Shown: positions 2,506 through 39,295 of the stretch, in pieces
Layout of the letters: each line of letters begins with the position of its first letter
Position numbering within the stretch: position 1 is the first letter of the stretch
Assembly: GCA_964409225.1 (NCBI GenBank)
Contig: CAYPCM010000002.1
Coordinates: 413-64,412 of the forward strand
Length of the DNA stretch: 64,000 bases
Reading direction: 5' to 3'
Source: an uncultured Candidatus Saccharibacteria bacterium
GTDB taxonomy: Bacteria > Patescibacteriota > Minisyncoccia > JACPXH01
Position numbers and translations under genes: made by a program
Notes under the pieces: model-generated
Told to the model about the DNA's origin: nothing
Seen by the model: only the letters and a program-made list of their open reading frames with translations
The model's database searches: none

Positions 2506-3231
2506 ATGGCAAAGCGTCAACCCGAGGCCTCTCCGCTGCGACAGCTGCTCGAACAGTTCCTTGACACCGAACAGCTTCGTTCCGTAGACCAGATCCTCAT
2601 TCCCTGGCGGCAGGCAGCCCGACGCCGACGCTATCCGTTGCCGGCCCCCAGTACGGTGAACACCGGTGCCGTGTGCGCGGCGATCACCAGAGCAACGGGG
2701 GAGCGAGCCGAGCGCATCACCGCCTTCTCGGTCAACCGCGCACTTCGGGAGACCTCTGTACTCACTTGGAAGTGCTACCGCTGGCTGAAAGGCCGCCAGG
2801 GCGACACCAATACCCTGCCCTTCTGGGATCTCGTTGACCTGCAGCTGATGGGCCTTGGCGCAGGCGCGACGGATGGTCTCGACGAGGAAACGTTCGATGC
2901 GCTGGTTGAACGCGTGCTCGAGAGCGGCGGCAATGAGATTTACGAGGCACTGATGGATTTTGCCGACCGCCTCTCGGTGCGTTTTGGCGAGCGTGCGTGG
3001 GAGGGCGGCCGTGGGGTCCTCACGATGCCGGAACTGGAGATTGACGATGCGCCCGTCGCGGACCTCGAGGCGATCCCAGCGGAACTACTGCGCAGGTACC
3101 TCGGTTTTCGCATGAGCGGCGCTCGAGATCTCGCGCTCCGGCTTGAACCAACCGTCCGCATGCTCCCCTACTACCTGCCGCTCTACGAGCAGCACGGAGA
3201 ACCGGGCAACTGGGTGGTGTTGACGGCATGA
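2506..3231 (+). CDS. hypothetical protein
   Basis: ORF with AAAGGAGGGTG SD upstream of ATG at 2506 (track ORF 2407.. trimmed). Confidence 0.5.
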   Translation: MAKRQPEASPLRQLLEQFLDTEQLRSVDQILIPWRQAARRRRYPLPAPSTVNTGAVCAAITRATGERAERITAFSVNRALRETSVLTWKCYRWLKGRQGDTNTLPFWDLVDLQLMGLGAGATDGLDEETFDALVERVLESGGNEIYEALMDFADRLSVRFGERAWEGGRGVLTMPELEIDDAPVADLEAIPAELLRRYLGFRMSGARDLALRLEPTVRMLPYYLPLYEQHGEPGNWVVLTA

Positions 3232-3424: not shown

Positions 3425-3997
3425 ATGCTCACCCTTGCCCGAATCCGTCCCGGCGCAACGTTCCTCGAAGACGGGGATCCGTACGTTGTGCTCGAAGCCC
3501 AGCATGTACAGCTGGGTCGGGGCGGCGCGATTTTGAACACACGCATCCGGAACCTGCGGACCGGCGCCACCACCAAACGCGCCTTCAAAGGAAACGATGC
3601 GGTGGCGGAAGCTGAGGTTAAGAAACAAGCCAGCCGATTCATATACGCACACCGCGGCGAATATTGGTTTGAGAATCCGGCGAATCCCAAGGAACGATTT
3701 GCGCTTTCGGCAGGTCAATTGGGCGATAATGCGCAATGGCTGATGCCAAAACTGGAGGTTTCCGCCCTCGTATTTGAGGATCAGGTACTTGCGGTGGAAT
3801 TGCCGATTAAGGTTGACTATCGAGTCACCGATGCTCCGCCCGGCCTACGCGGCAACACTGCCCAAGGCGGCACGAAATCAGTAACTCTCGAAACCGGTGC
3901 CGTCATCCAAGCCCCTCTCTTCATCGAAGCCGGCGCAGTGGTGCGCGTGAACACTAGAACCGGTGAGTACGTCGAGCGCGTTACGACGCAACACTGA
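3425..3997 (+). CDS. efp: translation elongation factor P
   Basis: EF-P hallmark C-terminal KVDYRVTDAPPGLRGNTAQGGTKSVTLETGAVIQAPLFIE; length ~190 aa from internal Met; track ORF 3305.. has non-homologous N-extension. Confidence 0.9.
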   Translation: MLTLARIRPGATFLEDGDPYVVLEAQHVQLGRGGAILNTRIRNLRTGATTKRAFKGNDAVAEAEVKKQASRFIYAHRGEYWFENPANPKERFALSAGQLGDNAQWLMPKLEVSALVFEDQVLAVELPIKVDYRVTDAPPGLRGNTAQGGTKSVTLETGAVIQAPLFIEAGAVVRVNTRTGEYVERVTTQH

Positions 3998-4151
3998 TCT
4001 CGTTACAATGGTTCCACCGTCGCGTTACACGCTCTGTAACACTTGTGGATAAGTCGCGTCTCTGATAGTGTAAACAAAGAGACGGTTTTAAAACTGCAAA
4101 TCGGAATGCTGGTAAGGTGTTGCCGGGTCATGCATTGTCGCACAGGCGACT

Positions 4152-4808
4152 GTGCGGCGGCGTATGCCTCGACGCGTCCTCAATCGTTTCTCCACCGACT
4201 TTGCCCCATTGGTGGGGCAGATAACGCCGGAAAAAACGGCGCCGCGCGGCGCAGTAGTTATTGACGCCAATAACGATAAAAGAACACCGGCTGAACCCCA
4301 ACACGAATTCCTGGAGGCCTACGACTCTTATCTCGAAAAAATATATCGCTACATCCTTTCACGCATCCGCGTAAGGGAGGTAGCTCAAGATTTAACCAGC
4401 GACGTGTTCACTCGCGCCTGGGCATTCCTGAAAAAGGGCGCGGCGGTAAAACACTGGGGCGCGTTTCTCTATACCCTCGCCACGAATGCGTTAAGGGATT
4501 TTGGGCGCTCGCGAGGGCGCCGCGAGCGTGTATTTTCTTCCATCGCACCGCACGCGCTCGAAAATAACGACCGCGTGCGGGTTGAGCCAGATTCAGATCG
4601 CGAGCTCGACCGGCGGCGAGAGTATGAAGTTGCGCTCGTGAACCTAAACAACCTCAAACCTACATACCGACAAGTCGTATTCCTGCGGTATGTTGAGGGC
4701 TACAGAACTTGCGAAATCGCTACAATCATGAACCGTTCTAGTACGTGGGTGCGCGTGACGCTTCACCGCGCTTTAAAGCGCCTGCGGAGCGGCATTAGGC
4801 GGGTGTAA
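4152..4808 (+). CDS. RNA polymerase sigma-70 factor, ECF subfamily
   Basis: region 2 (YLEKIYRYILSRI...DVFTRAW) and region 4 HTH (YRQVVFLRYVEGYRTCEIATIMNRSSTWVRVTLHRALKRLR). Confidence 0.85.
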   Translation: MRRRMPRRVLNRFSTDFAPLVGQITPEKTAPRGAVVIDANNDKRTPAEPQHEFLEAYDSYLEKIYRYILSRIRVREVAQDLTSDVFTRAWAFLKKGAAVKHWGAFLYTLATNALRDFGRSRGRRERVFSSIAPHALENNDRVRVEPDSDRELDRRREYEVALVNLNNLKPTYRQVVFLRYVEGYRTCEIATIMNRSSTWVRVTLHRALKRLRSGIRRV

Positions 4809-8451: not shown

Positions 8452-9006
8452 TGCTGCATTAGGCGCACAGAGAGCCCTGGCCGTCTTGCTCGGGTGCTGC
8501 CTCGCCCGGACCCCGCACCAACGTCGCTTCGCTCCGTGGTGCGGGGCAGGCGTGTCGCTCGACCCCTTCTGCTTTGTGATTCGGCGAGGCGCAGCCCCTC
8601 TGCGAGCGTTCGCTCGTCCAGCGACTCGCTCACTCTGTCCTCGCTGACGGGGTCGCTGCTGCGGCAGCGCCCACCATGCCCGTCAGCTGCGGATGTCGCC
8701 TCGGGGCTGCGCCTCGCCTCAGGAGCTCGGCCGGAGTTTACCCCGCCTGGTCGCCCGCAGGCGACTCGTGCGGGGCGACGCCGGTCTCGGCAGCAACCCT
8801 CACAGACCCCCCGCCCTCGCCGGCGGGGCCGCCGCGTGCCGTTCGAGCGACGTCGCGCAGCCGCGCCCGAGATAAAACTGCTCTTAAATCTGATAATCTA
8901 AGGCGCGGCGAGCGAGAGCAGCGGCCTGACAATAGCCCAATTCCAACCCGAGTCAGGCCGACTGCGGTCGCGAGACACGGCTGCGGCGGCCCCGCCACGA
9001 AAAATC
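8452..9006. other. 555-bp GC-rich non-coding gap with 10-bp hairpin (ccccgcacca..tggtgcgggg) and 16-bp long-range inverted repeat GGCGAGGCGCAGCCCC / GGGGCTGCGCCTCGCC
   Basis: only overlapping Arg-rich ORFs typical of GC-rich noise; repeats read directly. Confidence 0.3.
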
Positions 9007-10053
9007 TTACGCCGTCTTGACTGCGTACTTGCCTTCTCCGGTGCGCACGAAGAATGACCGATGCTGAAGATTCAACAGCACCGTGTTTTCTTTTACGAAC
9101 CGACGCCTCAACACTTCCGCCAGAAGCTCTTCTTTTGTCATGGGTCGGCCATTCTCGCGCAATACCGCAAGCAACACTTCCCGCACCGTGCCCGGTTGAT
9201 ACCCCCATTCAGCCAGCGCATACGTGCCCCGGCCAACGAGAACGAAACGTTTGTCCTTGATGAGTTCGTTGTGCACGGTCTGCGGATGAGCTGGTCGGCG
9301 CTTGGCAATGCTCGAATTGATATGTTCGGCCACCTCCCGGAAATGCAATGGCTTGGCCGCCCGCTTAAAAATGAGATAGGCCTTGTCCTTTACGCCGCGG
9401 GGCTTAACCTCTGGCCAGTGCGCCGGCCCCCATTCACCAAAGGGATTACGCTCGACGAGCCGAGAAGCGTCAACGTAAGAAAGCACTGTTTTGGCGGTCG
9501 CACCGCTTAGCGACTGCGCCACTCGGCCAGCTCGGTTCGCAAGTTCCTCCTCGGATATGGTGCGCCGATCATTCGTAAACGTGTCGCTTAACATCGCGAC
9601 GGCCTTTCGCGCCGCGGCCAACGCTTCTGCGCCTACGTACCACAGCGTGTAAAATTCGTCATCGTCGCGCTGACGCGCGGCTTCACCGGCAAGAGTAAGT
9701 ATCAAAGTTGCTGCCGCGCGCTCTTGCGGCGTATCTGCACCAAACATTTGAGCAATATCTACTAAAAACTGATCTTCCCGGCGCACGTTTCCATGATCAG
9801 CCAAATGCTGACTCATGGCGGTCGCGTAACTTGCAATCTTCGCCATTACTTCCGGCTTGCGGAGCACGGTGAGACCATCCGCCTCGATCTGACGAACCCG
9901 CTCGCGAGTAATGCCAAAACCGTCCCCGATTGCTTCGAGGGTTTTCCTTTTCCCGTCCTTGAGCCCGAAACGACCGGAGATAATGTCGCGCGTGCGCTTA
10001 GCCAGCGCGCCCACGATCTCTGCCGCCACCACCTGAAGAGATGAGTTTATCAT
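9007..10053 (-). CDS. sigma-70 region 4 domain protein with C-terminal HTH/winged-helix domain
   Basis: ISGRFGLKDGKRKTLEAIGDGFGITRERVRQIEADGL is a canonical sigma-70 region 4.2 HTH. Confidence 0.75.
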   Translation of the reverse strand: MINSSLQVVAAEIVGALAKRTRDIISGRFGLKDGKRKTLEAIGDGFGITRERVRQIEADGLTVLRKPEVMAKIASYATAMSQHLADHGNVRREDQFLVDIAQMFGADTPQERAAATLILTLAGEAARQRDDDEFYTLWYVGAEALAAARKAVAMLSDTFTNDRRTISEEELANRAGRVAQSLSGATAKTVLSYVDASRLVERNPFGEWGPAHWPEVKPRGVKDKAYLIFKRAAKPLHFREVAEHINSSIAKRRPAHPQTVHNELIKDKRFVLVGRGTYALAEWGYQPGTVREVLLAVLRENGRPMTKEELLAEVLRRRFVKENTVLLNLQHRSFFVRTGEGKYAVKTA

Positions 10054-29450: not shown

Positions 29451-30380
29451 ATACCGAACTTCTTCTTCCAATTCGATCCCTGTTTTTTCGTACACTCGCT
29501 GTTTGATAAGCAAAATAAGTTGCATAATGTCCCGCGCCGTCGCTGAACCAATATTCACAATAAAGTTTGCATGCTTCCGGGATACTTCCGCCCCGCCTAC
29601 CCGCACGCCCTTAAGACCACATTCGTCAATAAGCTTGCCGGCCAGCTGCTTAGCAGAAGGGTTTTTGAAAATACACCCCTCTGAACGGTCGCCGAGCGGC
29701 TGATGAGCACATCGGGCGGCCATCACTCGCTGTATTTCCGCAGTAATTGACGCTGGATCATTGTCTGTTTTGAGCTGAAAGACGCCCCGGAATATAACCG
29801 TCCCCGGCCATTCCTTAAAATTCGACCAACGGTAGCGAAATTGAACTTCCGGAGGCGCGAGAATAGTAGGGTCAGACCCTCCTATGACGCCAGCTGATCC
29901 GATCACCGTTACCTCACGAATGAACTCTCCGGTGGCGTGACCAAATGCCCCGGCATTGCCGAAGATCGCCCCGCCCACGGTCCCGGGCAGTCCCGCCGCC
30001 CACTCGAACCCCGTAAGTCCTGCTTTTGCCGCTTCCTGCACGACCCGGCCCATCGGCACGCCTGCGCCGACAGTCACGCTCCCGTCTGATTGCATCTCAA
30101 AATCAGTATTCTCGACTTTGATGACGAGCCCGGGAAACCCCTCGTCAGCCGCAAGCACATTCGTGCCTCCGCCCAATACGAACACGGGCATACTGCGTGC
30201 TTCAGCCCATGAAAGCGCCTCGGCCGCTTCTTCGCTGGAACGAACCCGCGCAAAAAACCGCGCCGGCCCGCCGACGCGGAAAGTGGTAAGGGGAACGAGA
30301 GAAATATTCTCCTGAATGTGCATGAGGAAAACGACACTCGTTACTGTTCGAGCGAGCGAAGCGAGTCGGGAACCTACCAT
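29439..30380 (-). CDS. murB: UDP-N-acetylenolpyruvoylglucosamine reductase
   Basis: FAD-binding domain LVPLTTFRVGGPARFF, C-terminal MurB domain; GGAG SD. Confidence 0.9.
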   Translation of the reverse strand: MVGSRLASLARTVTSVVFLMHIQENISLVPLTTFRVGGPARFFARVRSSEEAAEALSWAEARSMPVFVLGGGTNVLAADEGFPGLVIKVENTDFEMQSDGSVTVGAGVPMGRVVQEAAKAGLTGFEWAAGLPGTVGGAIFGNAGAFGHATGEFIREVTVIGSAGVIGGSDPTILAPPEVQFRYRWSNFKEWPGTVIFRGVFQLKTDNDPASITAEIQRVMAARCAHQPLGDRSEGCIFKNPSAKQLAGKLIDECGLKGVRVGGAEVSRKHANFIVNIGSATARDIMQLILLIKQRVYEKTGIELEEEVRYLKA

Positions 30381-30639
30381 TTACTCCACTCACCTCGAAT
30401 GAGCTTCAGTTTCTTCGCCTGGCTCCAATCTTTTAACTGTCGTTCCCGCCACCGTGCTTGATCAAAATCGTCGTACTCCTCGAGGTACACGACTTTTTGA
30501 CGCCGTGCCTGGCCGTGTATTTCGAGCCGAGCCCAGAGAGATGCTGCACCCAACGACGGTCTGGTCGCCACGTCATACCGGTGTAGTACGTCTCGTCGTT
30601 GCACTCGATAATATATATGTACCATTTCCACTGGGCCAT
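30374..30639 (-). pseudogene. GIY-YIG nuclease family gene (COG2827-like) disrupted by a frameshift (or assembly error)
   Basis: frame B gives WYIYIIECNDETYYTGMTWRPDRRWVQHLSGLGSKYTARHG, frame A continues KVVYLEEYDDFDQARWRERQLKDWSQAKKLKLI; junction ~30530-30560. Confidence 0.6.
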
Positions 30640-30709
30640 AAGGAAACTTCTCGACTCGTCTCTCTCCGCCAGCCGGCGGATCGAGACTCGCTCGAAGAAT
30701 AATGCCTCA

Positions 30710-32731
30710 TTATCGGGTAATCGCCGCGCCGGTCCGATAAAAATTACGCTCCGCCGTGTTGATGTCAAAAATCGCCTCGGCTCGCCGACCAGACGAAAAA
30801 AACTGCCCGGCCGTCATCTGAAGCCACCGCTTGCGGCCGGTTGAATCAATCTCGTAGACGCGCGTGTCGCCGACAGCGCGAATCAAGCGGCTTTCGGCGT
30901 AACGATTCAAAATATCCGCCTCAACCTCAATCACTTTTTCAAACCCGAGATGCCGATAAAACGAAAATATCTTGGCCGAAGTGATGTGCCGCCTGAAGCC
31001 GGCTTTAACGATCCACACCTTAAAGTCGCCGCGCGTCCGTATTAAAGCGCCGTCTGGAATTGTCACTATCGTTTGGGGGGCCGCCTGCGCCGGCGGTGGC
31101 GCCACCGAAACAACCGGAGGAGAGTTGGCAGAAGCAGCGTTTATGTTCACGCTGTCGGTTTTCACGACGGTCGCGCCGCTAGGACCCACAATTTCAATCG
31201 CGACGAGCCCCGAAAGCCCCGCCGGCACCGTGGCTTCAAGAGCGGTGCCTGACGTTACCACCACGCGATTTGTTTCGAGGCCGTTGAAAAACACGCGGCT
31301 GCCTGGCTGGAAGTTGCGGCCCTCAATACTAAGAATCGTCCCGGTACTGGCCTCAAAGGGCCTCACTGTAGTAATTGTCGGCAATTCAACATTGACCATC
31401 TGCGCTGTCAGCGTAAATTGCGCCTGCGGCTCTTTGTCCGTAAAACCGACTGTTTTTAACGTATCAAACGCAATCACCTGCACTGATCGCGCCGCGCTGC
31501 CAAGGTCTGGCACAATCAGAGAGCCAACTTCGTCTTTCATTCTGACGGGCTTGATGTCATACCTTCCGTCTGCTTGCTCAATCACTGCCACCACCCGGAA
31601 GAGCGATCCGGTCGGCGCCGCACCCCGAAAGGAAAGCTGCAACGCCCCGCCGCCCCCCACGAAACGGTACGTCCACGCCGCCCAGGGTGCTGTGCCCTGT
31701 GAAATCGCTGCGGTCTGGCCCGAACCAAGAGCGAAAGACGCGTTTGGCGAAATTCGCATCGCGCGCAGATCTTGCTGTTTATACGCATAACGGCCCGAAC
31801 CGGCTGAGGGGCTGTTGATAACGTTAGCGATGGCCCAGTTTTGGAACACATCGGCAAATTTTTCAGCGCTGCCAACCTGTCCGAGCGCTTCTTCTATGCT
31901 GGGAATCCCTGCTTTCGACGACGCGAGTGCGAGGCGCAAAACGCCCTCGCCGTAATGGTCGGCCAGATACTGCGCAAACATCATTACGATCCCGTAGTCC
32001 TCTGATTGATTAGCCCATTCGGTGAGCGAATCATTCGGTTTTTTCAAAAATCCCTGCACGCGCGACTGCAAGTTCGAACCCTCAAAAGGAGTGTTATAGC
32101 CCACGAGCGTCGTTGCGTATTCGCTGCGCAGTTCATTCAGCCACACCTCGTCGGCGCGGTTGAGCCGCAATTCTTTCTGATTCGAAGAAATCAAATGCTG
32201 GAATTCATGCGCGAGGAAGCTCTTCGAACGACCTATGGTTACGTGGCGCGCATTCAGGTTGATCAGTTCCCGTTCGTTCGATTCCGGATCGCGCGATCGG
32301 GAAAACAGATCATTCGGGTTAAAGTACCCGCCCGCGCTTTGGTTGAGATTTTCGAGGAGCACGTGGATGCGCGGATCTGCGTCAAGGCCGGGATTGGGCT
32401 CTGATCCGAAAAATGCGCGCTCGCGGGGCGCAATAGTGTTGTCGAACTCCTGAACCAAAGTGTTGAGCGCTTGTTGATACGTCTGCTGCTCGTTACCCGA
32501 AAGATTCATCCAGTACCGATCGTCCACCCAGAAATACACATTGTTGCCCACTGCCCGGAGCGTGGCGGTGAGGGACGTGCGCTTATCCGCATCAAAGCTC
32601 GAATCCACGCTGAAGGTCTGTGTGGCGCCGAGATCAAGAGCGAAGCCAGCGGCCGGCACCGTGAGAACAAAAAAGAGCCCGAGGGAGAGGGCCGTGCCGA
32701 TAAATACTTTCGAGCTGCGCCGTCGAAGCAT
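30710..32731 (-). CDS. secreted zinc-metallopeptidase-like protein with C-terminal IPT/TIG-like domain
   Basis: signal peptide, HExxH motif AHEFQHL, IPT-like repeat TILSIEGRNFQPGSRVFFNG...VTSGTALEATVP. Confidence 0.7.
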   Translation of the reverse strand: MLRRRSSKVFIGTALSLGLFFVLTVPAAGFALDLGATQTFSVDSSFDADKRTSLTATLRAVGNNVYFWVDDRYWMNLSGNEQQTYQQALNTLVQEFDNTIAPRERAFFGSEPNPGLDADPRIHVLLENLNQSAGGYFNPNDLFSRSRDPESNERELINLNARHVTIGRSKSFLAHEFQHLISSNQKELRLNRADEVWLNELRSEYATTLVGYNTPFEGSNLQSRVQGFLKKPNDSLTEWANQSEDYGIVMMFAQYLADHYGEGVLRLALASSKAGIPSIEEALGQVGSAEKFADVFQNWAIANVINSPSAGSGRYAYKQQDLRAMRISPNASFALGSGQTAAISQGTAPWAAWTYRFVGGGGALQLSFRGAAPTGSLFRVVAVIEQADGRYDIKPVRMKDEVGSLIVPDLGSAARSVQVIAFDTLKTVGFTDKEPQAQFTLTAQMVNVELPTITTVRPFEASTGTILSIEGRNFQPGSRVFFNGLETNRVVVTSGTALEATVPAGLSGLVAIEIVGPSGATVVKTDSVNINAASANSPPVVSVAPPPAQAAPQTIVTIPDGALIRTRGDFKVWIVKAGFRRHITSAKIFSFYRHLGFEKVIEVEADILNRYAESRLIRAVGDTRVYEIDSTGRKRWLQMTAGQFFSSGRRAEAIFDINTAERNFYRTGAAITR

Positions 32732-32777
32732 ATGTACATTCTACAAAAAATATCGCGGCTGATCAAGAAAAACAATT

Positions 32778-33957
32778 GGCGGAGACCCCGGAGGATCTCC
32801 GCCCTGTGCGGGAACACGCCCTGCCCAACTCGGCTGGACCAAATTTAGCCGAACCGGGCTGCGTTGGAGAATCGGCGGCGTTCGCCTGCAGGCGAACGCC
32901 GCCCTGCGCTGGACAACGCCTCACCTTGATATGCCGTGCGCTGCTTAACTCTAGCAAACGGCAGCATGCCGGGGAGACGATTCTGAATTTGGGATTCGGC
33001 GAGGCGCTGATCTGCGCCTCGCCCCGTGCGTAGGGAAACCTTGCGACATCCCGCGAAGCGATACTTCACGTAACAAGGCCCTGACGTGCTCCGCAAGGCG
33101 TTGCGGTGTGTATCCCAAGAAAGAACAGAATGTGATTGACGAAGCCTGTCATTGACAGGCTTCGTCCCGTGCAAAGTCCTGCTGGACTGGAGCTTACTAG
33201 GGCACACACCACTATACTGGAGTGAGCCACACGCCACAAAGCAATGGCGTGATTGTAAAACAGAGTTTTGGCAGAGAGCCCGCGGGCTCTCTGCCCCGTG
33301 CGAAAGCAAGGAGGAGCCGGCAGCGCGATACTTTGCTCGAGCGCACCACGCGATGCAGAACTCAACCCTGCCGTGGTTTGCGGGAGATGGCGGGGATTTT
33401 TACAAGAATCCCCGCCCCATGCCCAACTCTGCAAAACTGAACCCAGCTTGGCTAAGCTTTACAAGGCCTGGCCCCGCTCAGCTTGGCAAAACATATATAA
33501 CATCCACAACATAACTAGTCAAGCTCAAACAGCAAAGAAAGACGGGAGCCGAATCGGCTCCCGTCCCGTGCCCTGCGCTGCTATGTCGTACCACAGCTAG
33601 CTGGACAAAACTTCGCCCGACAGCACGGAGATGTGTGAACGATATTGATGAGTGGCGGGGACTCTTTCGAGCCCCCGCCCCGTGCAGAACTTCACTGGAG
33701 GTTGCTACAGACAGCTCTGCTGGGCTGCGCCTTGGAGTGTGAACAGCAAGGTTGTCCGTAGACAACGAAATCTCTGCTACCCAGAAAGTGTCGGCGAGGC
33801 GCAGGAGTGCGCCTCGCCCCGGGCTACGCGGTACCCCACGCGGCCTGACTCCGCCTCACCACACAAGGCGAAACCAAACCATGGTCGGAAGGCGAACTAG
33901 TGTGCCGGTACATTCACCAGAGTTGACAGGGGCGCCCGAAGGCGCCCCTGTCCCGTG
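32778..33957 (-). repeat. array A: ~10 tandem ~125-bp units, each = variable GC hairpin (10-16 bp stem; sequence differs, structure conserved) + invariant CCGTGC (plus-strand reading); on minus strand GCACGG-hairpin-U-tract terminators of small-RNA-like units
   Basis: hairpins at ~32778, 32874, 32998, 33138, 33270, 33389, 33541, 33654, 33792, 33924 each followed by CCGTGC (variants CTGTGC/CTGCGC/CCATGC/CCGGGC); internal TTGACT-N17-TATATA promoter at 33494-33522 on minus strand. Confidence 0.7.
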
Positions 33958-34042
33958 CTGGACCAAGCTGGGCCCGACTTGACCGAACCGAGCCCGACCC
34001 TAGACGACCAAGGGCTGGTTTGCCCAGGTGCGTGAAACGACA

Positions 34043-35836
34043 TCACCTCCTCCCCAAGAGTTTCAGCGTCTCCTCGACGCACTGATCGAACGTGAGCGTA
34101 CCGCGGTACGCCGGCTCGAGCCAGCCGGGCAGCGAACCGAACACAAACCGCCGGAACTGCTGCGAGATAAAGAACGTGACTCCTTTGTCCTCGGTACTGC
34201 GGATGTTGCGTCCGCGCACCTGCAACGCCTCGATCATCACCCGCCAGTTCCAGAGCTCCCAGAGCCGACGGCCGAAGCGCTTACCCTCAAAAACCGCCAT
34301 TGGGTCTTTGGGGTTGGGGAAGCCCGGCTTCAAGAAGAAAATGACCGGAGCCATCATCTTCGGCAGATCAACTCCTTCTCCGTACTGCGCCACGGTGCCC
34401 ACGAGCACCGTCCCCTCACCCTCCTTGAAGTTTGCGGCTGCCGCTTTCGCGGTCGTGCCATTGCCGTAGCTTGTCGCATGCACTCCTTCCTCGACGCAGA
34501 ACGCGAGGAACTTTTGGCGTTGCTTCTCGGAGACCACCACGACGAGCGACCGGTGGCCGGCTGCGCCGAACTTCACGCAGGCCCTCGCAATCCGCCGAAG
34601 CACCTTTGTCGGCTCGGCGCGGATGCACACCTTGGCTGCCAAGCTTGGCGTATCGATGGGCATAAAGATACGAGCGTTGTCAGCCGAAAACGTGGACGCA
34701 AGGCTGCAGACGGGAAAATCAATCCCCGTCTCGAACGCAAACACCTGCGGGTTGCCGATCGTCGCCGAATAGGCAACCGTTATGCGGCCAAAGAGTTTAC
34801 GGATGATGGGTGCGACATAGTACGCCCGGATGACGAGCTTGTGCCGAACCCTTTCGCGCTCCGTAAGCTCTTCCCGGTAGAAGGCATACGTGTAGTTGAG
34901 CGCATGACGCTCGCCGGTTGCAAGCGAGTAGCCGAGCGACCGGATGTACCGCCCAAGATCCAGCGCGAGCACCTCGAGCTTCTTCAGAGCCTCGCGGCGC
35001 TCTCGCGGATCAATTCGGCGATCCTTCACCGCCTGAGCAAGCTTCGTGCGGAGCGCATCCGGCTCAATCTTCACCAGCTCATCTAACAACTCCCGGATCT
35101 CCTCGGCCTCGAGCAGGGTCTCGGTCTTTGCCGGCTTCGCCCTAGCGATCCGAACCATCGTCTTCAAGAACTGCTCAAACGCAGCCGCCTCTCCTTCAGC
35201 ACCGATCTCCTCAAGGAGCTCGATGCATTTGCGCAGATGCCAGTCGGTAATCTCATAGCTCAAGAGGCTACGAATCGCGCGAGCGATCCGGTGCGCCTCA
35301 TCAATGATGAGCGCTGCCGGCTGGCGCCACTCTCTCGAGAACAGCTGCGTGAAGAGGTAGAAGGCGTAGGTGCAGACCACCATCGGCGCCTGCTTTGCCT
35401 CGTACTTTGCGCGTAGGTAAGGACACGATGGCGCACCCGGCTCAAACGTCTCGCCTGTCTGCTGATCCACACGAAAGCGGCAATCGATGAGGATCGAACA
35501 TGGAATCTCATCTGCCTTCAACCCCTCGCCCTCATAATAGAGACAGTCATACTCGCTTCGCCCGTAGGCGATCCGGAGATCCGGACACATGTGTCCCACT
35601 TGCTCGACGAGCGTCTTCGTCGGAGCAATGTAGAACAACGGTCCTTCATTGAGACGACGGTGCGCTCGCAACACGGTGTAGCCGATGTCGGTTTTGCCGG
35701 TGCCAGTCGGCGCTTCGAGCACGCAGGACCGGTGCTTTTCGGCAAAATCGAGACCCTGCTCTTGAACCGACCGCATATGTGGATGGATGTGCCGCGGAAA
35801 GCTTGCCTTCAAGTTCAGAGGCCGCTCTTCCTTCAT
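34043..35836 (-). CDS. DinG/XPD (Rad3)-family Fe-S helicase
   Basis: motif I VLEAPTGTGKT, four-Cys Fe-S cluster region (DCLYY..PCSILIDC..SCPY), DEAH box LIIDEAHRIA, helicase C-terminal motifs. Confidence 0.85.
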   Translation of the reverse strand: MKEERPLNLKASFPRHIHPHMRSVQEQGLDFAEKHRSCVLEAPTGTGKTDIGYTVLRAHRRLNEGPLFYIAPTKTLVEQVGHMCPDLRIAYGRSEYDCLYYEGEGLKADEIPCSILIDCRFRVDQQTGETFEPGAPSCPYLRAKYEAKQAPMVVCTYAFYLFTQLFSREWRQPAALIIDEAHRIARAIRSLLSYEITDWHLRKCIELLEEIGAEGEAAAFEQFLKTMVRIARAKPAKTETLLEAEEIRELLDELVKIEPDALRTKLAQAVKDRRIDPRERREALKKLEVLALDLGRYIRSLGYSLATGERHALNYTYAFYREELTERERVRHKLVIRAYYVAPIIRKLFGRITVAYSATIGNPQVFAFETGIDFPVCSLASTFSADNARIFMPIDTPSLAAKVCIRAEPTKVLRRIARACVKFGAAGHRSLVVVVSEKQRQKFLAFCVEEGVHATSYGNGTTAKAAAANFKEGEGTVLVGTVAQYGEGVDLPKMMAPVIFFLKPGFPNPKDPMAVFEGKRFGRRLWELWNWRVMIEALQVRGRNIRSTEDKGVTFFISQQFRRFVFGSLPGWLEPAYRGTLTFDQCVEETLKLLGRR

Positions 35837-35929
35837 CTCTCCTCCCTGCTCGCGTTACGCGAGACTGAACCAGGGTTGCGGTGATGGGAGCTTCTTCGTA
35901 GGAGCTCCCAGATGTCAAAGATCAACCGT

Positions 35930-35961
35930 TTTGATATATCAAAAACAGAAAACTTTGTCAA
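35930..35961 (-). promoter_or_regulatory. promoter for DinG-like gene: TTGACA-N17-(TGa)TATATC on minus strand, embedded in the lead of repeat unit 12
   Basis: reverse complement of 35933-35961 reads TTGACAaagttttctgtttttgaTATATC. Confidence 0.45.
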
Positions 35962-36263
35962 TGTTTCAAAAAAGAAACGGCGGGGATCCGGAAGGATCCC
36001 CGTCCCGCGCATCGCCACACTTAGCTCGACCCTGCGATAGTGAGCAACGGTGGACGGCGTAGTGGTACAAGTAGAAGGAACGATTATGGCGGCGGGGCTC
36101 ACCGCAGAAACTGGCGAGGTCGCCATTGGGCGACCTCGCCCTGTGCAACGCGACGCGATGCTTTACTCTGACCCGCCGAACGCCACCCTGCTGGACATTA
36201 CTTGACTCTGCAGAACCGCGTTGCTAAAAGAACAGACGGCAGGGAACCCTTTGGATCCCTGCC

Positions 36264-36374
36264 CCGTGCCACGCAGCGCCGAACCACGCCATAAGGTACC
36301 GGAGCTCGCCCTGAAGCGCCGCATCGAGCTCTGCTGTGGTCGGCTCTGTAAAATATCATTATCACAAGTAAAAC
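36264..36374 (-). ncRNA. example of one predicted small-RNA unit (~110-125 nt): promoter TTGACA-N15-TGtGATAAT (36368-36394) -> body with internal hairpin gagctcg..cgagctc -> GCACGG + terminator hairpin (unit 14) + UCUGUUCUUUU
   Basis: promoter, body and intrinsic terminator all readable on minus strand. Confidence 0.35.
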
Positions 36375-36899
36375 TACCTGTCAATGTTCAATGTTCAAAA
36401 AGAAGCGGCGGGGATCCTTCCGGATCCCCGCCCCGTGCCAAACTCTACAGAACTGAACTCAGCCTAGGCCGACTCCACTCTGAGCGGCACCGCTACGGCG
36501 AGTTAAGCTCCGCGGCCTTAGGGTAAATTTGCGAGAGCCCTGATGGGAGCTCCCGCCCGTGCTGGGCCTTAGACTACGCGACCCTGCTAAGCACCGGACA
36601 ACTCCGCAATGCGCGACCGCACTAAGAGGATATTCTACAGAAGCGATGATGGAACCCTCCAGTGGAGGGTTCCATCCCATGCGAGACCAGACGCTACTGC
36701 GCTGCACCAGACGGTAACTGGGTTAGCGTAGCAAGGCCGGGCCGCACCGGGCGGCTCCGAGAAAAGGCGGGGATCCAAACCGCGGATCCCCGCCCCATGC
36801 GCTGCTCTGCGCTGCTGAACTGGACCAAACGAAGACGAGTCACGCTGCGCCGAACCGAGTAGCCTAAACGCCGTAAGCCCCAAGGAAGAGAGCCTTGCC

Positions 36900-37607
36900 C
36901 TATGACGCCACCGCGGCCTTCGCGCGCCTGCCCTTCGCTGGCTTCTCGGTCGTGACCTCCGGTCCGCCCTCCCCGTCCTCGCCCTCACCCGTCTCGACGC
37001 CGGACTCGTCGGTGCTCTCGGCCGCGGCCTTCGGGGATTTGGTCCGCTCGAGCACCTCCCAGGTCTTGATGCGGAAGCGCCCGAAGTTGCCCTTGGTCCG
37101 GAAACTGCACAACCCGAAGCACCGTCCGGCCTCGACGAAGAGCTGCTTGGCCGACTTCTCGGACAGCAGATCCTCCTCGATCCGAATGACCACCTCGATC
37201 TCCCACTGGTTGAACTTGGGCCGGACGATCCGGCAGGCGGTGCCGTCCAAGTTGTCGCCCTTGCGCTTGTCCACAACCCAGCCAGAACCGTGGTTGATCG
37301 GGAAGAACTCCTGCTCGAGCGTGACGAGCGCGGGCAAGAACGTGAGCTTGCCGCTCGAGACCTTCCGCTTGTCGCGGAACGGGATGAACACGCCGCCCTC
37401 ACGCAGACACGCGAACAGGTTGTCCCCGGGGATGCCGAGCTGCCCTTCGGCGTTGAGGTAAAGTTTGCCCGCGGCGATCTCCTTGACCGGTCGGTCCTTA
37501 CGCACCGGCAACTTCACGCCGGTCCCGATGGAGTCCAGCACCTCCTCGGACATCGGGTCCATGAGCAGCGGCCTCGTACCCTCCAACACCACCCTGACTC
37601 GAATCAC
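36900..37607 (-). CDS. RAMP-superfamily protein, Cas7-like (Csm3/Cmr4/Csf2-like) with acidic C-terminal tail
   Basis: N-terminal beta-strand IRVRVVLEGTRPLLM, LPVRKDRP...LGIPGDNLFACLREGG (cf. Cas7 PV.RD..IPGSSLKGxLR), C-terminal glycine-rich loop FGLCSFRTKGNFGRFRI. Confidence 0.5.
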   Translation of the reverse strand: MIRVRVVLEGTRPLLMDPMSEEVLDSIGTGVKLPVRKDRPVKEIAAGKLYLNAEGQLGIPGDNLFACLREGGVFIPFRDKRKVSSGKLTFLPALVTLEQEFFPINHGSGWVVDKRKGDNLDGTACRIVRPKFNQWEIEVVIRIEEDLLSEKSAKQLFVEAGRCFGLCSFRTKGNFGRFRIKTWEVLERTKSPKAAAESTDESGVETGEGEDGEGGPEVTTEKPAKGRRAKAAVAS

Positions 37608-37639
37608 GGCTTACCTCCTGGGCTTTCTGCCCGTGAGAG

Positions 37640-38340
37640 AGTGAAAAGAACGAGCGGGAAGAGCATTCTCCCCGCCCTCCTCTGATATGATCCACATATC
37701 ATACGTTGATATACATGTCAAGAGCTTGTACAAGAAATAAAACGACGGGGACCCTAGAGGGTCCCCGTCCCGTGCGAAACAAGGATGGGCACTGCGGCGC
37801 GAAGCATTACAGCACGACACGTTACGAGGCTTCGCCGTGCGCTGTGCTCTACCCGTTACCGCCTTTTCGCTTCCCTCCGAAAAAGTTCTGACACCGACCC
37901 GTACATCACCCCCCCCCCCCGATCGTACCGGCCGTTCCCGCTCGGCTTGCACGAGAGCTCCGATGATCCGCTTGTGCTTGCCGTGCCTCGCAAACGCCTT
38001 GCTCTTGTTCCAGATTTTCTGGACCATCTTCCTACCCCCGGCGTCGGTAATGGGGATCGGCAGGTGTCCGTTCGCGAACGGACACCTGCCCCGTGCCGGA
38101 GATTGATGGGCCGGACCGGACCCTGCTGCGCTTGACTGGACCGCGGGCAACGTTGCTATGCCCGGCTTGGCATTAAGTTTACTAGCACATACGGCTTGCA
38201 CTGTCAAACGCAGATTTTTACTCCGTGGAATTAACGCATTTGCGAGCAGAGACGTCCACACAATCAAACAAGCCCGGACGCATGCGTCCGAGTTGTGATT
38301 TGACGTGCGCCGAGCTTGTATGATCCCCGTGCCGTCCCAG
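37640..38340 (-). repeat. array C: 3-4 further hairpin+CCGTGC units (gacggggaccct-aga-gggtccccgtc ~37744; 16-bp palindrome ggcaggtgtccgttcgcgaacggacacctgcc ~38059) with minus-strand promoter TTGACA-N17-TGcTAGTAA near 38205
   Basis: read directly. Confidence 0.5.
37690..37722 (-). promoter_or_regulatory. promoter for RAMP-like gene: TTGACA-N17-(TGa)TATGTG on minus strand, embedded in lead of repeat unit 21
   Basis: reverse complement of ~37693-37721. Confidence 0.4.
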
Positions 38341-38446
38341 TCGGACGGTGGCGCGGGGCGTTGAATGAAGACGGATGAAACGCGCCGGTGTTACATTTCC
38401 CTTCTCGACTTCGGGACGCTAAGCGTCCCTTCGCTCGAAGGATATG

Positions 38447-39295
38447 CTATCCACCAACCGTTTCGGCAATTTTTTGGATGACGGAGAGATTTCGCAGGTC
38501 GTCTTCGTCCGAGTCCTTCGGCGTTTCCAAAATCCAATTGACTTTACGCAGTTCAGAAAAACCCAAAAGCGCCCGAAAGCCAGCTTCCCCTATTTCGCCT
38601 TTGCCGATGTCGGCATGGCGATCTCTGTGCGAACCAAGCCCAAAAACAGAATCATTCGCGTGGACAATTTTGAGTCGCTCAAGCCCGAGATGCCGATCAA
38701 AATCCGCAAGCATGGCCTTGACCGCAGCGGGAGTGCGCACGTCGTAGCCGGAAGCGAACATATGACAGGTGTCGAGACAAACGCCGAAATCATGGCCGGA
38801 TTTCGCCATGATGTCGCCCACCTCCTCGAACGTATCGCCAATGATCGCACCCGTTCCGGCAGAAAATTCCAACAGCAGTCGGCTCTCTCCGTTCCAGCCC
38901 CGCATAATTTCGGCAAGCGACGCGGCCGCGTTCTTTCGCCCCTCGGTCTCCGGCCGATCCATGGCGCTGCCCAAATGCGTTACCACATACCCGATGCCAA
39001 GAACGTCTGCCCGCTCGAGCTCCTCGCGCACAATCCGAACTGAATTTTTCTGGATGCGCCGATTCGGGGATGCCAAGTTAATATAGTAAGGCGCGTGGAT
39101 GACGATATCTTCAGCCGCATATCCGAACTCGCGGCAACCCCGCCGAAACCCTTGAATCATCTCGTCGGTGAGTGCTTGCCGTCCCCCGCGCGGCGAACGG
39201 CTGAACAACTGAAAACACGCGCACCCCAAACGGTGCGCGTGTTCCGGGACATGCTGAATTCCGCCTGCGGCTGAAACGTGAACGCCGAACTTCAT
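38447..39295 (-). CDS. nfo: deoxyribonuclease IV (endonuclease IV, AP endonuclease family 2)
   Basis: MKFGVHVSAAGG..., HAPYYINLASPN, zinc-ligand residues of Nfo/xylose-isomerase-like TIM barrel; track N-extension to 39469 looks non-coding. Confidence 0.85.
   Translation of the reverse strand: MKFGVHVSAAGGIQHVPEHAHRLGCACFQLFSRSPRGGRQALTDEMIQGFRRGCREFGYAAEDIVIHAPYYINLASPNRRIQKNSVRIVREELERADVLGIGYVVTHLGSAMDRPETEGRKNAAASLAEIMRGWNGESRLLLEFSAGTGAIIGDTFEEVGDIMAKSGHDFGVCLDTCHMFASGYDVRTPAAVKAMLADFDRHLGLERLKIVHANDSVFGLGSHRDRHADIGKGEIGEAGFRALLGFSELRKVNWILETPKDSDEDDLRNLSVIQKIAETVGG

What the first reader, a model, noticed from the sequence alone, without database searches (positions are those of the whole stretch)
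34043..35836. DinG/XPD-family Fe-S helicase embedded in the repeat cassette (Csf4-like context)
The helicase has the complete superfamily-2 Rad3-type motifs plus a four-cysteine Fe-S domain. It sits between repeat arrays A and B. Its promoter, TTGACA-N17-TGaTATATC, is built into the lead of repeat unit 12. This implies that the gene and the repeats are co-evolved rather than adjacent by chance. DinG helicases are the signature accessory gene of type IV-A CRISPR-Cas and of several defence systems.
Basis: partly seen in the sequence, partly recalled or inferred. Interest (0 to 1): 0.6.

Follow-up and report, generated by a model that had tools for sequence, protein, structure and literature searches.

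The report
VIPR RNA-guided locus with XPD-like helicase
The helicase gene is real and sits inside a VIPR locus (a minimal CRISPR-like RNA-guided system first described in 2026), with one small Cas7-like protein and 19 guide-RNA genes, and the same three-part arrangement recurs across candidate-phyla-radiation bacteria.

Summary
ORF 34043-35836 (-) encodes a 597-aa XPD/DinG-family helicase with intact SF2 motifs and four conserved cysteines, and repeats flank it on both sides. The "Csf4 / type IV-A CRISPR" reading does not hold.

The repeats are 19 units of 81-127 nt on the helicase strand. Each is a tract of 11-20 pentamers of the form YNNNG (position 1 Y 98%, position 5 G 76%), ending in GCAYGGG plus a GC-rich hairpin whose stem covaries.

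The unannotated 235-aa ORF 36900-37607 (-) between the arrays is a homologue of Vipr. Its family profile matches PDB 36pp_D, "SUSP1 Vipr protein", at E 3.8e-13, and its predicted fold is Cas7-like. Vipr plus pentamer-repeat vrRNAs with a structured tail defines VIPR systems (bioRxiv 10.64898/2026.04.26.720920), some types of which carry helicase accessory genes.

In 14 of 14 related CPR loci the helicase lies next to a vipr gene. In most, it lies between same-strand pentamer tracts. One locus (L005) uses hammerhead ribozymes between the units.

The PADLOC "typeIV_DinG" hit comes from a generic DinG/XPD model. Csf4-specific models fail. No natural target was found.

Verdict: a new member of a known kind, in a chromosomal housekeeping setting.

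The parts
34043..35836 (-). XPD/DinG-family SF2 helicase, 597 aa, with a four-Cys Fe-S signature. Inferred to be the VIPR accessory gene (vap).
   Evidence: synteny
35933..35961 (-). Promoter-like site of the helicase gene: TTGACA, 17-nt spacer, TATATC, with an extended -10 TG.
36900..37607 (-). vipr: 235-aa minimal RAMP (Cas7-like). GTG start after AGGAGG. The C-terminal ~45 aa is predicted disordered.
   Evidence: 36pp_D Vipr, E 3.8e-13; phrog_4652, 18/18
37693..37721 (-). Promoter-like site of vipr (TTGACA-N17-TATGTG with upstream TG), followed by a leader hairpin and T-run at 37652-37677.
38058..38175 (-). vrRNA unit 1: 17 pentamers plus tail hairpin. Promoter-like site starts at 38207.
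37742..37844 (-). vrRNA unit 2: 15 pentamers, tail hairpin and T-run terminator.
36764..36859 (-). vrRNA unit 3: 13 pentamers.
36646..36761 (-). vrRNA unit 4: 17 pentamers.
36530..36626 (-). vrRNA unit 5: 14 pentamers.
36405..36497 (-). vrRNA unit 6: 13 pentamers, tail hairpin and T-run terminator.
36238..36348 (-). vrRNA unit 7: 17 pentamers. Promoter TTGACA-N18-AATGAT at 36384-36355.
36112..36220 (-). vrRNA unit 8: 16 pentamers.
35979..36059 (-). vrRNA unit 9: 11 pentamers, tail hairpin and T-run terminator immediately upstream of the helicase promoter.
33924..34012 (-). vrRNA unit 10: 12 pentamers. Starts about 30 nt after the helicase stop codon.
33792..33883 (-). vrRNA unit 11: 13 pentamers.
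33652..33734 (-). vrRNA unit 12: 11 pentamers.
33539..33630 (-). vrRNA unit 13: 13 pentamers, tail hairpin and T-run.
33387..33491 (-). vrRNA unit 14: 15 pentamers. Promoter TTGACT-N17-TATATA at 33522-33494.
33269..33395 (-). vrRNA unit 15: up to 20 pentamers.
33137..33246 (-). vrRNA unit 16: 16 pentamers.
32997..33108 (-). vrRNA unit 17: 17 pentamers.
32873..32973 (-). vrRNA unit 18: 14 pentamers. Its tail is the variant GCGCAGGG plus the hairpin GGCGGCGTTCGCC-TGCA-GGCGAACGCCGCC.
32777..32863 (-). vrRNA unit 19: 12 pentamers, tail hairpin and T-run terminator. This is the end of the locus.

Best explanation
Window 32777-38207 (minus strand) is a chromosomal VIPR (Viral Interference Programmable Repeat) locus of a Candidatus Parcubacteria (CPR) bacterium. 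Its layout is 2 vrRNA genes, vipr, 7 vrRNA genes, the XPD-like helicase gene, then 10 vrRNA genes.

Shown here:
- The 235-aa protein is a Vipr-family minimal RAMP.
- The 19 units have vrRNA anatomy: 11-20 tandem pentamers with fixed Y and G at the pentamer boundary and variable inner bases, capped by a conserved GCAYGGG plus a covarying hairpin tail.
- The helicase gene is linked to vipr and to such arrays in all 14 related loci examined.

Inferred from the published SUSP1 and P. fulva work:
- One Vipr protomer binds each pentamer and sequesters the conserved bases.
- The protomers polymerise into a helical filament on each roughly 100-nt vrRNA.
- The exposed variable bases read double-stranded DNA discontinuously, forming an R-loop triplex that blocks transcription.

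Inferred by analogy with CasDinG in type IV-A and Cas3 in type I:
- The helicase is the accessory effector (vap).
- It has intact ATPase motifs and a four-Cys Fe-S wedge domain but no nuclease domain.
- It would load at the Vipr-vrRNA-bound site and translocate 5'-3' on the displaced strand. That would extend or enforce interference with transcription or replication rather than cutting DNA.

Some units have their own TTGACA promoters and hairpin/T-run terminators, and others are probably co-transcribed and processed. In relative L005 the same job is done by type III hammerhead ribozymes between units.
For: Vipr identity:
- A profile of 18 orthologues matches PDB 36pp_D 'SUSP1 Vipr protein' over its full length at E 3.8e-13, including the shared AG..G.G.(F/W)RP..FGRF G-loop.
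- All 18 hit phrog_4652.
- The AlphaFold model (pLDDT 79.5) has Csm3 and type VII Cas7 as top folds, E 2e-6.

vrRNA anatomy:
- In-register pentamers have position 1 Y 98% and position 5 G 76%, with positions 2-4 near-uniform.
- 188 of 247 pentamers fit Y...G in register, against 4-39 in the other four registers.
- The signal is unique to these arrays and to this strand in 64 kb, and absent from shuffles.
- The tail hairpin has 12 pairs, 11 of them with compensatory changes across 17 units.
- Unit lengths are 81-127 nt, compared with the roughly 100-nt vrRNAs with 9-16 repeats and a structured tail in the paper. The paper also lists YNNNG variants, hammerhead-interspersed arrays and helicase vaps.

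Linkage:
- vipr lies beside the helicase in L001, L003-L013, L044 and L045, which is 14 of 14 loci.
- Same-strand pentamer tracts flank the helicase in most loci, with about 0 on the opposite strand or in shuffles.
- GCACGGG-hairpin units lie on both sides of the helicase in L001.
- Eight hammerhead matches lie on both sides in L005.
- Flanking genes differ between loci: HisRS/NusA/RelA, GltX/MreB, L25/RF, and here MurB/EndoIV/SOD.

Helicase integrity.
Against: - No expression, binding or interference data exist for this locus.
- No natural target was found. The best self-match in the window with the NN-x rule is 24 of 36 bases (67%), at the level of shuffled controls.
- Seven exact-core scans of IMG/VR and two of JGI metagenomes gave only chance-level hits that do not extend. 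The best reached 75% NN match, against the paper's 80% threshold.
- The pentamer here is YNNNG rather than the characterised YNNGG, so the read-out rule may differ.
- The role of the helicase is inferred purely from linkage and analogy.
- The paper's text mentions helicase vaps only in one clause, and I could not see its figures or tables. I therefore cannot say which of its seven types this is, or whether CPR loci are in its data set.
- The neighbourhood is housekeeping rather than a defence island or prophage.
Confidence: 0.85

Rival explanations
1. The helicase is Csf4/CasDinG of a (degenerate) type IV-A CRISPR-Cas system and the repeats are a decayed CRISPR array.
For: PADLOC PDLC01439 'typeIV_DinG; CAS-IV-A associated' matches at E 4.9e-50 over the full length. 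The helicase lies next to a RAMP protein and between arrays of hairpin-containing repeats. CasDinG is among the fold matches (E 1e-18 to 1e-16).
Against: - PDLC01439 is generic. Archaeal XPDs, a DnaQ-DinG fusion and other DinG-like proteins score 293-387 bits, against 135-169 bits for the CPR helicases.
- Csf4-specific models fail: PDLC01729 scores 25.5 bits, PDLC01730 scores 13.4 bits, and TIGR03117 scores 22 bits against a cut-off of 400.
- No CasDinG chain is found by sequence profile at E<=1e-3, whereas XPD reaches 1e-19.
- TM-score is 0.57-0.63 to CasDinG and up to 0.76 to XPD.
- CasDinG has a vestigial Fe-S domain (PMC10450177), whereas this protein keeps four conserved Cys.
- There are no near-identical direct repeats and no Csf1/2/3/5.
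- The 'spacers' are pentamer-periodic and the RAMP matches Vipr.
Confidence: 0.03
2. The helicase is a housekeeping DNA-repair XPD/DinG orthologue of CPR bacteria. The VIPR arrays and vipr merely tend to sit next to it (for example a preferred insertion site or shared regulation), with no role for the helicase in RNA-guided targeting.
For: - More than 400 full-length homologues at 51-61% identity occur across many CPR lineages, on contigs up to 690 kb.
- Neighbourhoods are always housekeeping.
- The closest solved relatives are repair and transcription helicases: XPD, FANCJ, DinG.
- No target or interference evidence exists.
Against: - Linkage is 14 of 14, although the surrounding genes differ in every locus. 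The conserved unit is therefore vipr + arrays + helicase, not a chromosomal position.
- The helicase gene lies inside the array, on the same strand, behind the same TTGACA-type promoter as vipr and some vrRNAs.
- It fails the curated DinG and YoaA equivalogs by a wide margin: 39-54 bits against cut-offs of 548-789.
- It is more divergent from the generic DinG/XPD model than true housekeeping members are.
- Helicase accessory genes are reported for VIPR types.
Confidence: 0.09
3. The repeats are ordinary intergenic hairpin elements (REP-like elements, or terminators of unrelated small RNAs) with no guide function, and the 235-aa ORF is an unrelated hypothetical protein.
For: Several hairpins are followed by T-runs and score as intrinsic terminators: 16 found against 7.4 +/- 2.4 expected. 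Rfam has no family for them.
Against: - Strict 5-nt periodicity lies upstream of every hairpin, in register with the tail.
- The stems show compensatory changes.
- The same architecture appears in genomes with different tail sequences, and with hammerhead processing.
- The ORF matches Vipr at E 3.8e-13 and has a Cas7 fold.
Confidence: 0.02

Closest known systems
VIPR systems (Vipr + vrRNA + vap), bioRxiv 10.64898/2026.04.26.720920 and 10.64898/2026.04.26.720927. Characterised examples: Escherichia phage SUSP1 and a P. fulva prophage (type II).
   Same: A single small RAMP protein homologous to SUSP1 Vipr. Roughly 100-nt RNAs made of tandem pentamers with conserved boundary bases and variable inner bases, capped by a structured 3' tail. 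vrRNA genes in the intergenic DNA on both sides of the protein genes. One accessory gene. Relatives with hammerhead-interspersed arrays. Helicase accessory genes and YNNNG repeat variants are both mentioned in the paper.
   Different: The pentamer is YNNNG (position 4 only R-biased) rather than YNNGG. The tail is a simple hairpin after GCAYGGG rather than the pseudoknotted SUSP1 tail. There are 19 vrRNAs instead of 4. The accessory gene is a 597-aa XPD-like Fe-S helicase rather than a small DNA-binding protein. The host is a CPR bacterium, and the locus sits among housekeeping genes rather than in a phage or prophage. No targets are known. Which of the seven published types it belongs to could not be determined from the text.
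Type IV-A CRISPR-Cas (Csf1-3, Csf5, CasDinG/Csf4)
   Same: An RNA-guided, RAMP-filament-based, nuclease-free system partnered with an XPD/DinG-family 5'-3' helicase. It has no adaptation genes. CasDinG-dependent transcriptional repression is the best functional analogy for what the helicase may do here.
   Different: No CRISPR array. One RAMP instead of Cas5/6/7/8-like subunits. The helicase fails Csf4 profiles, retains a four-Cys Fe-S signature (CasDinG's Fe-S domain is vestigial) and is structurally closer to XPD. The guides are genome-encoded pentamer-repeat RNAs.
XPD/Rad3, FANCJ and bacterial DinG/YoaA helicases (COG1199)
   Same: SF2 motifs, DEAH box, a four-Cys cluster between Walker A and B, and a helical Arch-like insertion at about residues 198-302. 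Pfam DEAD_2 + Helicase_C_2. TM-score up to 0.76 to XPD and 0.71 to DinG.
   Different: Only 12-19% identity to solved members. Fails the NCBIfam DinG/YoaA/Rad3 cut-offs. Forms its own CPR clade that is always linked to vipr and vrRNA arrays.

Membership tests
VIPR system | A Vipr protein: a minimal single-RRM RAMP with G-loop, homologous to SUSP1 Vipr | tested here: met
   Profile against PDB 36pp_D, E 3.8e-13, positions 4-189 of 200. phrog_4652 hit by 18/18. Foldseek top hits are Csm3 / type VII Cas7, E 2e-6.
VIPR system | vrRNA: at least 4 (typically 9-16) tandem pentamer repeats, YNNGG or a related consensus (NNNGG, YNNNG, NNNNG) | tested here: met
   19 tracts of 11-20 pentamers. Position 1 Y 98%, position 5 G 76%. 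188/247 in register against 4-39 out of register. Unique in the window and strand-specific. This is the YNNNG variant, not canonical YNNGG.
VIPR system | A conserved structured 3' tail capping the repeat tract | tested here: met
   GCAYGGG plus an 11-15 bp hairpin in 18 of 19 units (a variant motif in unit 18). 11 of 12 pairs show compensatory changes.
VIPR system | A minimal locus: vipr plus an accessory (vap) gene, flanked by vrRNA-bearing intergenic DNA, with no CRISPR array and no other cas genes | tested here: met
   Only two real genes lie in 32777-38207. vipr-helicase linkage holds in 14 of 14 loci.
VIPR system | vrRNAs are expressed as roughly 100-nt RNAs and co-purify with Vipr | not testable with these tools
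   Only promoter- and terminator-like sites and hammerheads in a relative speak to this.
VIPR system | Variable bases specify a dsDNA target by the 1-nt-skip rule; natural targets are in competing mobile elements | tested here: inconclusive
   No self-target. Exact-core scans of IMG/VR and JGI metagenomes gave only chance-level hits, at most 75% NN match. The search was much less sensitive than the paper's nhmmer workflow.
Type IV-A CRISPR-Cas | A CRISPR array of near-identical direct repeats separated by unique spacers | tested here: not met
   The repeat finder gives only 60-88% similar hairpin families with irregular 90-170-nt spacing. TRF finds no array.
Type IV-A CRISPR-Cas | A helicase that matches Csf4/CasDinG-specific profiles | tested here: not met
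   TIGR03117 scores 22 bits against a cut-off of 400. PDLC01729/01730/01321 score at most 25.5 bits. The PDLC01439 hit is generic. No CasDinG is found by sequence profile.
Type IV-A CRISPR-Cas | Csf1, Csf2 (Cas7), Csf3 (Cas5) and Csf5/Cas6 genes | tested here: not met
   There are no PADLOC or NCBIfam hits for the only other proteins of the locus. Neighbouring genes are housekeeping.
XPD/Rad3/DinG helicase family | SF2 motifs with a DEAH box, and Pfam DEAD_2 + Helicase_C_2 | tested here: met
XPD/Rad3/DinG helicase family | A four-Cys Fe-S domain inserted in helicase domain 1, and an Arch domain | tested here: met
   C98/C113/C119/C138 are conserved. There is a helical insertion at 198-302. TM-score is 0.75-0.76 to XPD. 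Actual cluster binding is not testable here.
Housekeeping bacterial DinG / YoaA (NCBIfam equivalogs) | A score above the curated equivalog cut-off | tested here: not met
   The best scores are 39-54 bits against cut-offs of 548-789.

The most novel reading that the evidence does not exclude
The vipr + XPD-like helicase + vrRNA-array module is an ancient, largely vertically inherited chromosomal system found throughout the CPR/Patescibacteria, a radiation that (from my own knowledge: Burstein et al. 2016) largely lacks CRISPR-Cas. On this reading it serves as their main RNA-guided defence, or as a regulator of the cell's own or its host's genes. The RAMP-plus-DinG-like-helicase partnership would then be the evolutionary stock from which helicase-dependent class 1 interference (type IV-A CasDinG, type I Cas3) arose. 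That would go beyond what the VIPR preprint states in its text, which presents VIPR as mainly phage-borne.
Probability: 0.2. Interest if true: 0.8.

Novelty: new member of a known kind. Interest (0 to 1): 0.5.

Why it matters
VIPR was described only in 2026, and only the small type II phage systems have been characterised experimentally. This locus is a well-delimited example of a helicase-associated, chromosomal VIPR. It carries 19 guides, a variant pentamer code (YNNNG) and a simple hairpin tail, and it comes from a bacterial radiation that is poor in CRISPR-Cas.

It gives three things:
- a defined set of parts for testing what a helicase adds to a nuclease-free RNA-guided DNA binder;
- evidence that gene, guides and helicase travel together across deep CPR divergence, with interchangeable RNA-processing solutions (promoter/terminator pairs or hammerhead ribozymes);
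- a caution for annotation, since a generic "typeIV_DinG" model will mislabel such helicases as CRISPR type IV components.

Tried and rejected
1. Rfam. No family reaches gathering score in the window. The only match at E<=5 in 32500-38500 is a chance sroE hit. There are no tRNAs.

2. CRISPR-like array. TRF finds nothing. The repeat finder shows divergent hairpin families only.

3. Type IV-A membership. The PADLOC PDLC01439 hit looked decisive but was rejected after control proteins scored higher.

4. Integron attC sites, REP elements, a replication origin, and tandem sRNA genes with unrelated function were considered early. They were dropped once the 5-nt periodicity and the Vipr match appeared. 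GC skew is monotonic across the window.

5. Target search.
   - Self-targets in the window under the NN-x rule are at shuffled-control level.
   - Five exact 10-repeat patterns in IMG/VR gave one hit (L043). It is AT-rich, the skip base falls on codon position 1, and it does not extend.
   - Two metagenome scans gave three hits, none of which extends beyond the 10-repeat core. Two lie in ordinary genes, a glycosidase-like ORF and a periplasmic binding-protein-like ORF (judged by eye from the translations). The third, L048, was not examined further.
   - Two 8-repeat core scans gave 51 hits, with a best full-tract match of 75%.
   - None is accepted. The method is insensitive, so this is not evidence of absence.

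6. Literature. No paper in the library links hammerheads, CPR and helicases. The VIPR preprints do not mention CPR/Patescibacteria or DinG in their text, and no supplementary files are held.

7. The k-mer-prefiltered protein search found only 5-15 Vipr relatives. The exhaustive HMM search found 7,927 cluster representatives at E<=1e-3 and 359 at E<=1e-30.
Full report
**1. The observation**

ORF 34043..35836 on the minus strand encodes 597 aa.
- Pfam finds Helicase_C_2, DEAD, ResIII and DEAD_2.
- In an alignment of 28 full-length homologues, Walker A (G45-K48-T49), DEAH (D179-E180-H182), SAT (357-359) and motif VI (Q539, R541-R543) are invariant.
- C98, C119 and C138 are invariant and C113 is at least 90% conserved.
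- The AlphaFold model is confident (pLDDT 88.4, pTM 0.87). It superposes on E. coli DinG (E 1e-22), archaeal and human XPD (E 1e-21, TM up to 0.76) and, less well, CasDinG (E 1e-18 to 1e-16, TM 0.57-0.63).
It reads TTGACA, a 17-nt spacer, then TATATC, with a TG two bases upstream of the -10.
- It lies directly after a hairpin and T-run that the terminator scan lists.

**2. What the repeats are**

Read on the helicase strand, every repeat ends in GCAYGGG followed by a GC-rich hairpin whose sequence differs from unit to unit.
- RNAalifold on 17 tails gives a 12-pair stem in which 11 pairs show compensatory double changes.
- Anchored on that tail, the 60-100 nt upstream fall into pentamers. Position 1 is C or T in 98%, position 5 is G in 76%, positions 2-3 are near-uniform and position 4 is purine-biased.
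- 188 of 247 pentamers fit Y...G in register, against 4-39 in the other four registers.
- Windows with at least 10 of 12 such pentamers occur only in these arrays in the 64-kb window, only on the minus strand, and never in shuffles.
- A segment scan delimits exactly 19 tracts. With their tails they form units of 81-127 nt: two upstream of ORF 36900-37607, seven between that ORF and the helicase, and ten downstream of the helicase.
- Five minus-strand TTGACA-type promoter-like sites (38207, 37721, 36384, 35961, 33522) and six hairpin/T-run terminators at unit ends punctuate the locus. Some units are therefore separate transcription units and others are probably co-transcribed.
- Rfam has no family for these RNAs and TRF sees no array.

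**3. The missing partner gene**

ORF 36900..37607 (-), 235 aa, has no Pfam, NCBIfam or PADLOC hit.
- It is 41% identical to a gene in the same position in another CPR genome.
- A profile of 18 such proteins matches one PDB entry, 36pp chain D "SUSP1 Vipr protein". The match is full-length at E 3.8e-13 and shares the C-terminal AG..G.G.(F/W)RP..FGRF motif.
- All 18 proteins hit phrog_4652.
- The predicted structure (pLDDT 79.5) has Cas7-family RAMPs (Csm3, type VII Cas7, Cmr4, Cas7-11) as best folds.
- An exhaustive HMM search finds 7,927 cluster representatives of this family at E<=1e-3.

**4. What is known about Vipr**

Two 2026 preprints describe VIPR systems.
- Vipr is a roughly 20-kDa minimal RAMP.
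- vrRNAs are roughly 100-nt RNAs of 9-16 YNNGG repeats plus a structured 3' tail.
- One protomer binds each repeat and sequesters GGY. The NN bases read dsDNA with one base skipped per repeat, forming an R-loop triplex that silences transcription.
- Loci are minimal, consisting of vipr plus one vap gene.
- Seven types exist. Variant repeats include YNNNG. Array architectures include hammerhead-interspersed arrays.

The window matches this definition feature by feature (see the membership table). It carries the YNNNG variant and a simple hairpin tail.

**5. Is the helicase part of the system?**

The helicase has more than 400 full-length homologues at 51-61% identity. The named ones are mostly CPR/Patescibacteria lineages (Parcubacteria, Kerfeldbacteria, Saccharimonadales, Paceibacterota). 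They sit on contigs up to 690 kb.

I examined 14 loci with enough flank.
- Every one has a vipr homologue on the same strand next to the helicase. L006, L009 and L010 have two each.
- Same-strand pentamer tracts flank the helicase in most loci, often on both sides. There are 0-2 on the opposite strand and none in shuffles.
- L001 has GCACGGG-hairpin units on both sides.
- In L005 the units are separated by type III hammerhead ribozymes, with eight RF00008 matches (seven at E 8e-6 to 1e-3, one at 0.3) on both sides of the helicase.
- L008 shows the hammerhead core sequence in a repeat family, seen by eye only and not confirmed with Rfam.
- The flanking genes differ in every locus. In the window they are SecA, spermidine synthase, HPF and MurB on one side, and endonuclease IV, HicB, SOD and an ABC transporter on the other.

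The conserved unit is therefore vipr + vrRNA arrays + helicase, not a chromosomal position. It makes the helicase the accessory (vap) gene of this VIPR clade.

**6. Not Csf4**

The PADLOC hit to "typeIV_DinG" (PDLC01439, E 4.9e-50) is misleading.
- Housekeeping-type archaeal XPDs, a DnaQ-DinG fusion and other DinG-like proteins score 293-387 bits on that model. The CPR helicases score 135-169 bits.
- Csf4-specific models and the NCBIfam Csf4 equivalog fail.
- By sequence profile the nearest solved proteins are XPD (1e-19), FANCJ and DinG, with no CasDinG.
- CasDinG has a vestigial Fe-S domain (PMC10450177), whereas this protein keeps four Cys.
- It also fails the DinG and YoaA equivalogs.

It is a distinct CPR clade of the XPD/DinG family.

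**7. Mechanism**

Shown: the parts list, the pentamer code, the covarying tail, the linkage, and the intact ATPase and Fe-S motifs.

Inferred from the SUSP1 and P. fulva work: Vipr filaments form on each vrRNA, dsDNA is read discontinuously, and transcription is blocked.

Inferred by analogy with CasDinG and Cas3: the helicase loads at the bound site and translocates 5'-3' to enforce interference. It has no nuclease domain.

The biological target is unknown. No self-target appears in the window. My exact-pattern scans of viral and metagenome collections gave only chance-level hits. That search is far less sensitive than the preprint's workflow.

**8. Novelty and score**

The kind of system is already known from the 2026 preprints, including helicase-associated types, YNNNG repeats and ribozyme arrays. 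This is therefore a new member of a known kind.

What the text of those papers does not state, and what this analysis adds:
- the breadth of the vipr-helicase module across CPR genomes;
- its housekeeping chromosomal setting;
- the XPD-like Fe-S nature of the helicase;
- the large 19-guide array with mixed promoter/terminator organisation.

I could not view the preprint's figures or tables, so some of this may already be in them.

Interest is 0.5. Confidence that this is a VIPR locus with the helicase as its accessory gene is 0.85. Confidence in the specific helicase mechanism is much lower.

Noticed in passing
L005:2751-2831, 3059-3139, 3469-3549: An 81-nt element with three predicted hairpins occurs three times (69-80% identical), interleaved with the hammerhead and vrRNA units. 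It has no Rfam match at E<=1. It may be a second processing ribozyme or an alternative vrRNA tail.
   Followed up: partly
L013:4335-4409: A tRNA gene (Rfam RF00005, 70 bits) sits inside the vrRNA array between vipr and the helicase. This could be another way of getting defined RNA ends, via RNase P/Z.
   Followed up: no
L006:709-1413 and 3700-4248; L009:7953-8564 and 8548-9219; L010: ~1943 and ~2876: Three related loci carry two divergent vipr paralogues. In L009 both lie downstream of the helicase.
   Followed up: partly
window:37652-37677 (-): A GC-rich hairpin followed by a T-run lies inside the 5' leader of vipr, between its promoter-like site (37721) and the GTG start (37607). It may be an attenuator or autoregulatory site.
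   Followed up: no
window:30374-30768 (-): A GIY-YIG-like small gene, judged by eye from the translation, appears split over two overlapping reading frames (ORFs 30433..30768 and 30374..30631). The 85-aa ORF has no Pfam hit. This could be a frameshift, a pseudogene or an assembly error.
   Followed up: no
window:39558-39794 (-): A HicB-like antitoxin (PF15919, 2.2e-7) lies next to the SOD gene. No HicA partner was looked for.
   Followed up: no
PADLOC model PDLC01439 (seen with window:34043-35836 and L014-L025): The model labelled 'typeIV_DinG; CAS-IV-A associated' scores archaeal XPD, DnaQ-DinG fusions and other DinG-like helicases at 293-387 bits. It is a generic DinG/XPD model and will mislabel any family member as CRISPR type IV-associated.
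   Followed up: yes
window:37611-38267, 32845-33309, 33066-33434, 36635-37402: Long ORFs overlie the vrRNA arrays or run antisense to or overlapping vipr. The one tested (37611-38267) has no homologues in Pfam, NCBIfam or PADLOC. They look like artefacts of GC-rich non-coding DNA and could be mis-called as genes.
   Followed up: partly
window:33387-33418 / 36405-36434 and their upstream 20 nt: Units 14 and 6 share not only the tail but also the last four or five pentamers (TTCAG TTYTG YAGAG TTKGG). The units may fall into sub-families with a longer conserved 3' handle, or these two may be recent duplicates.
   Followed up: no
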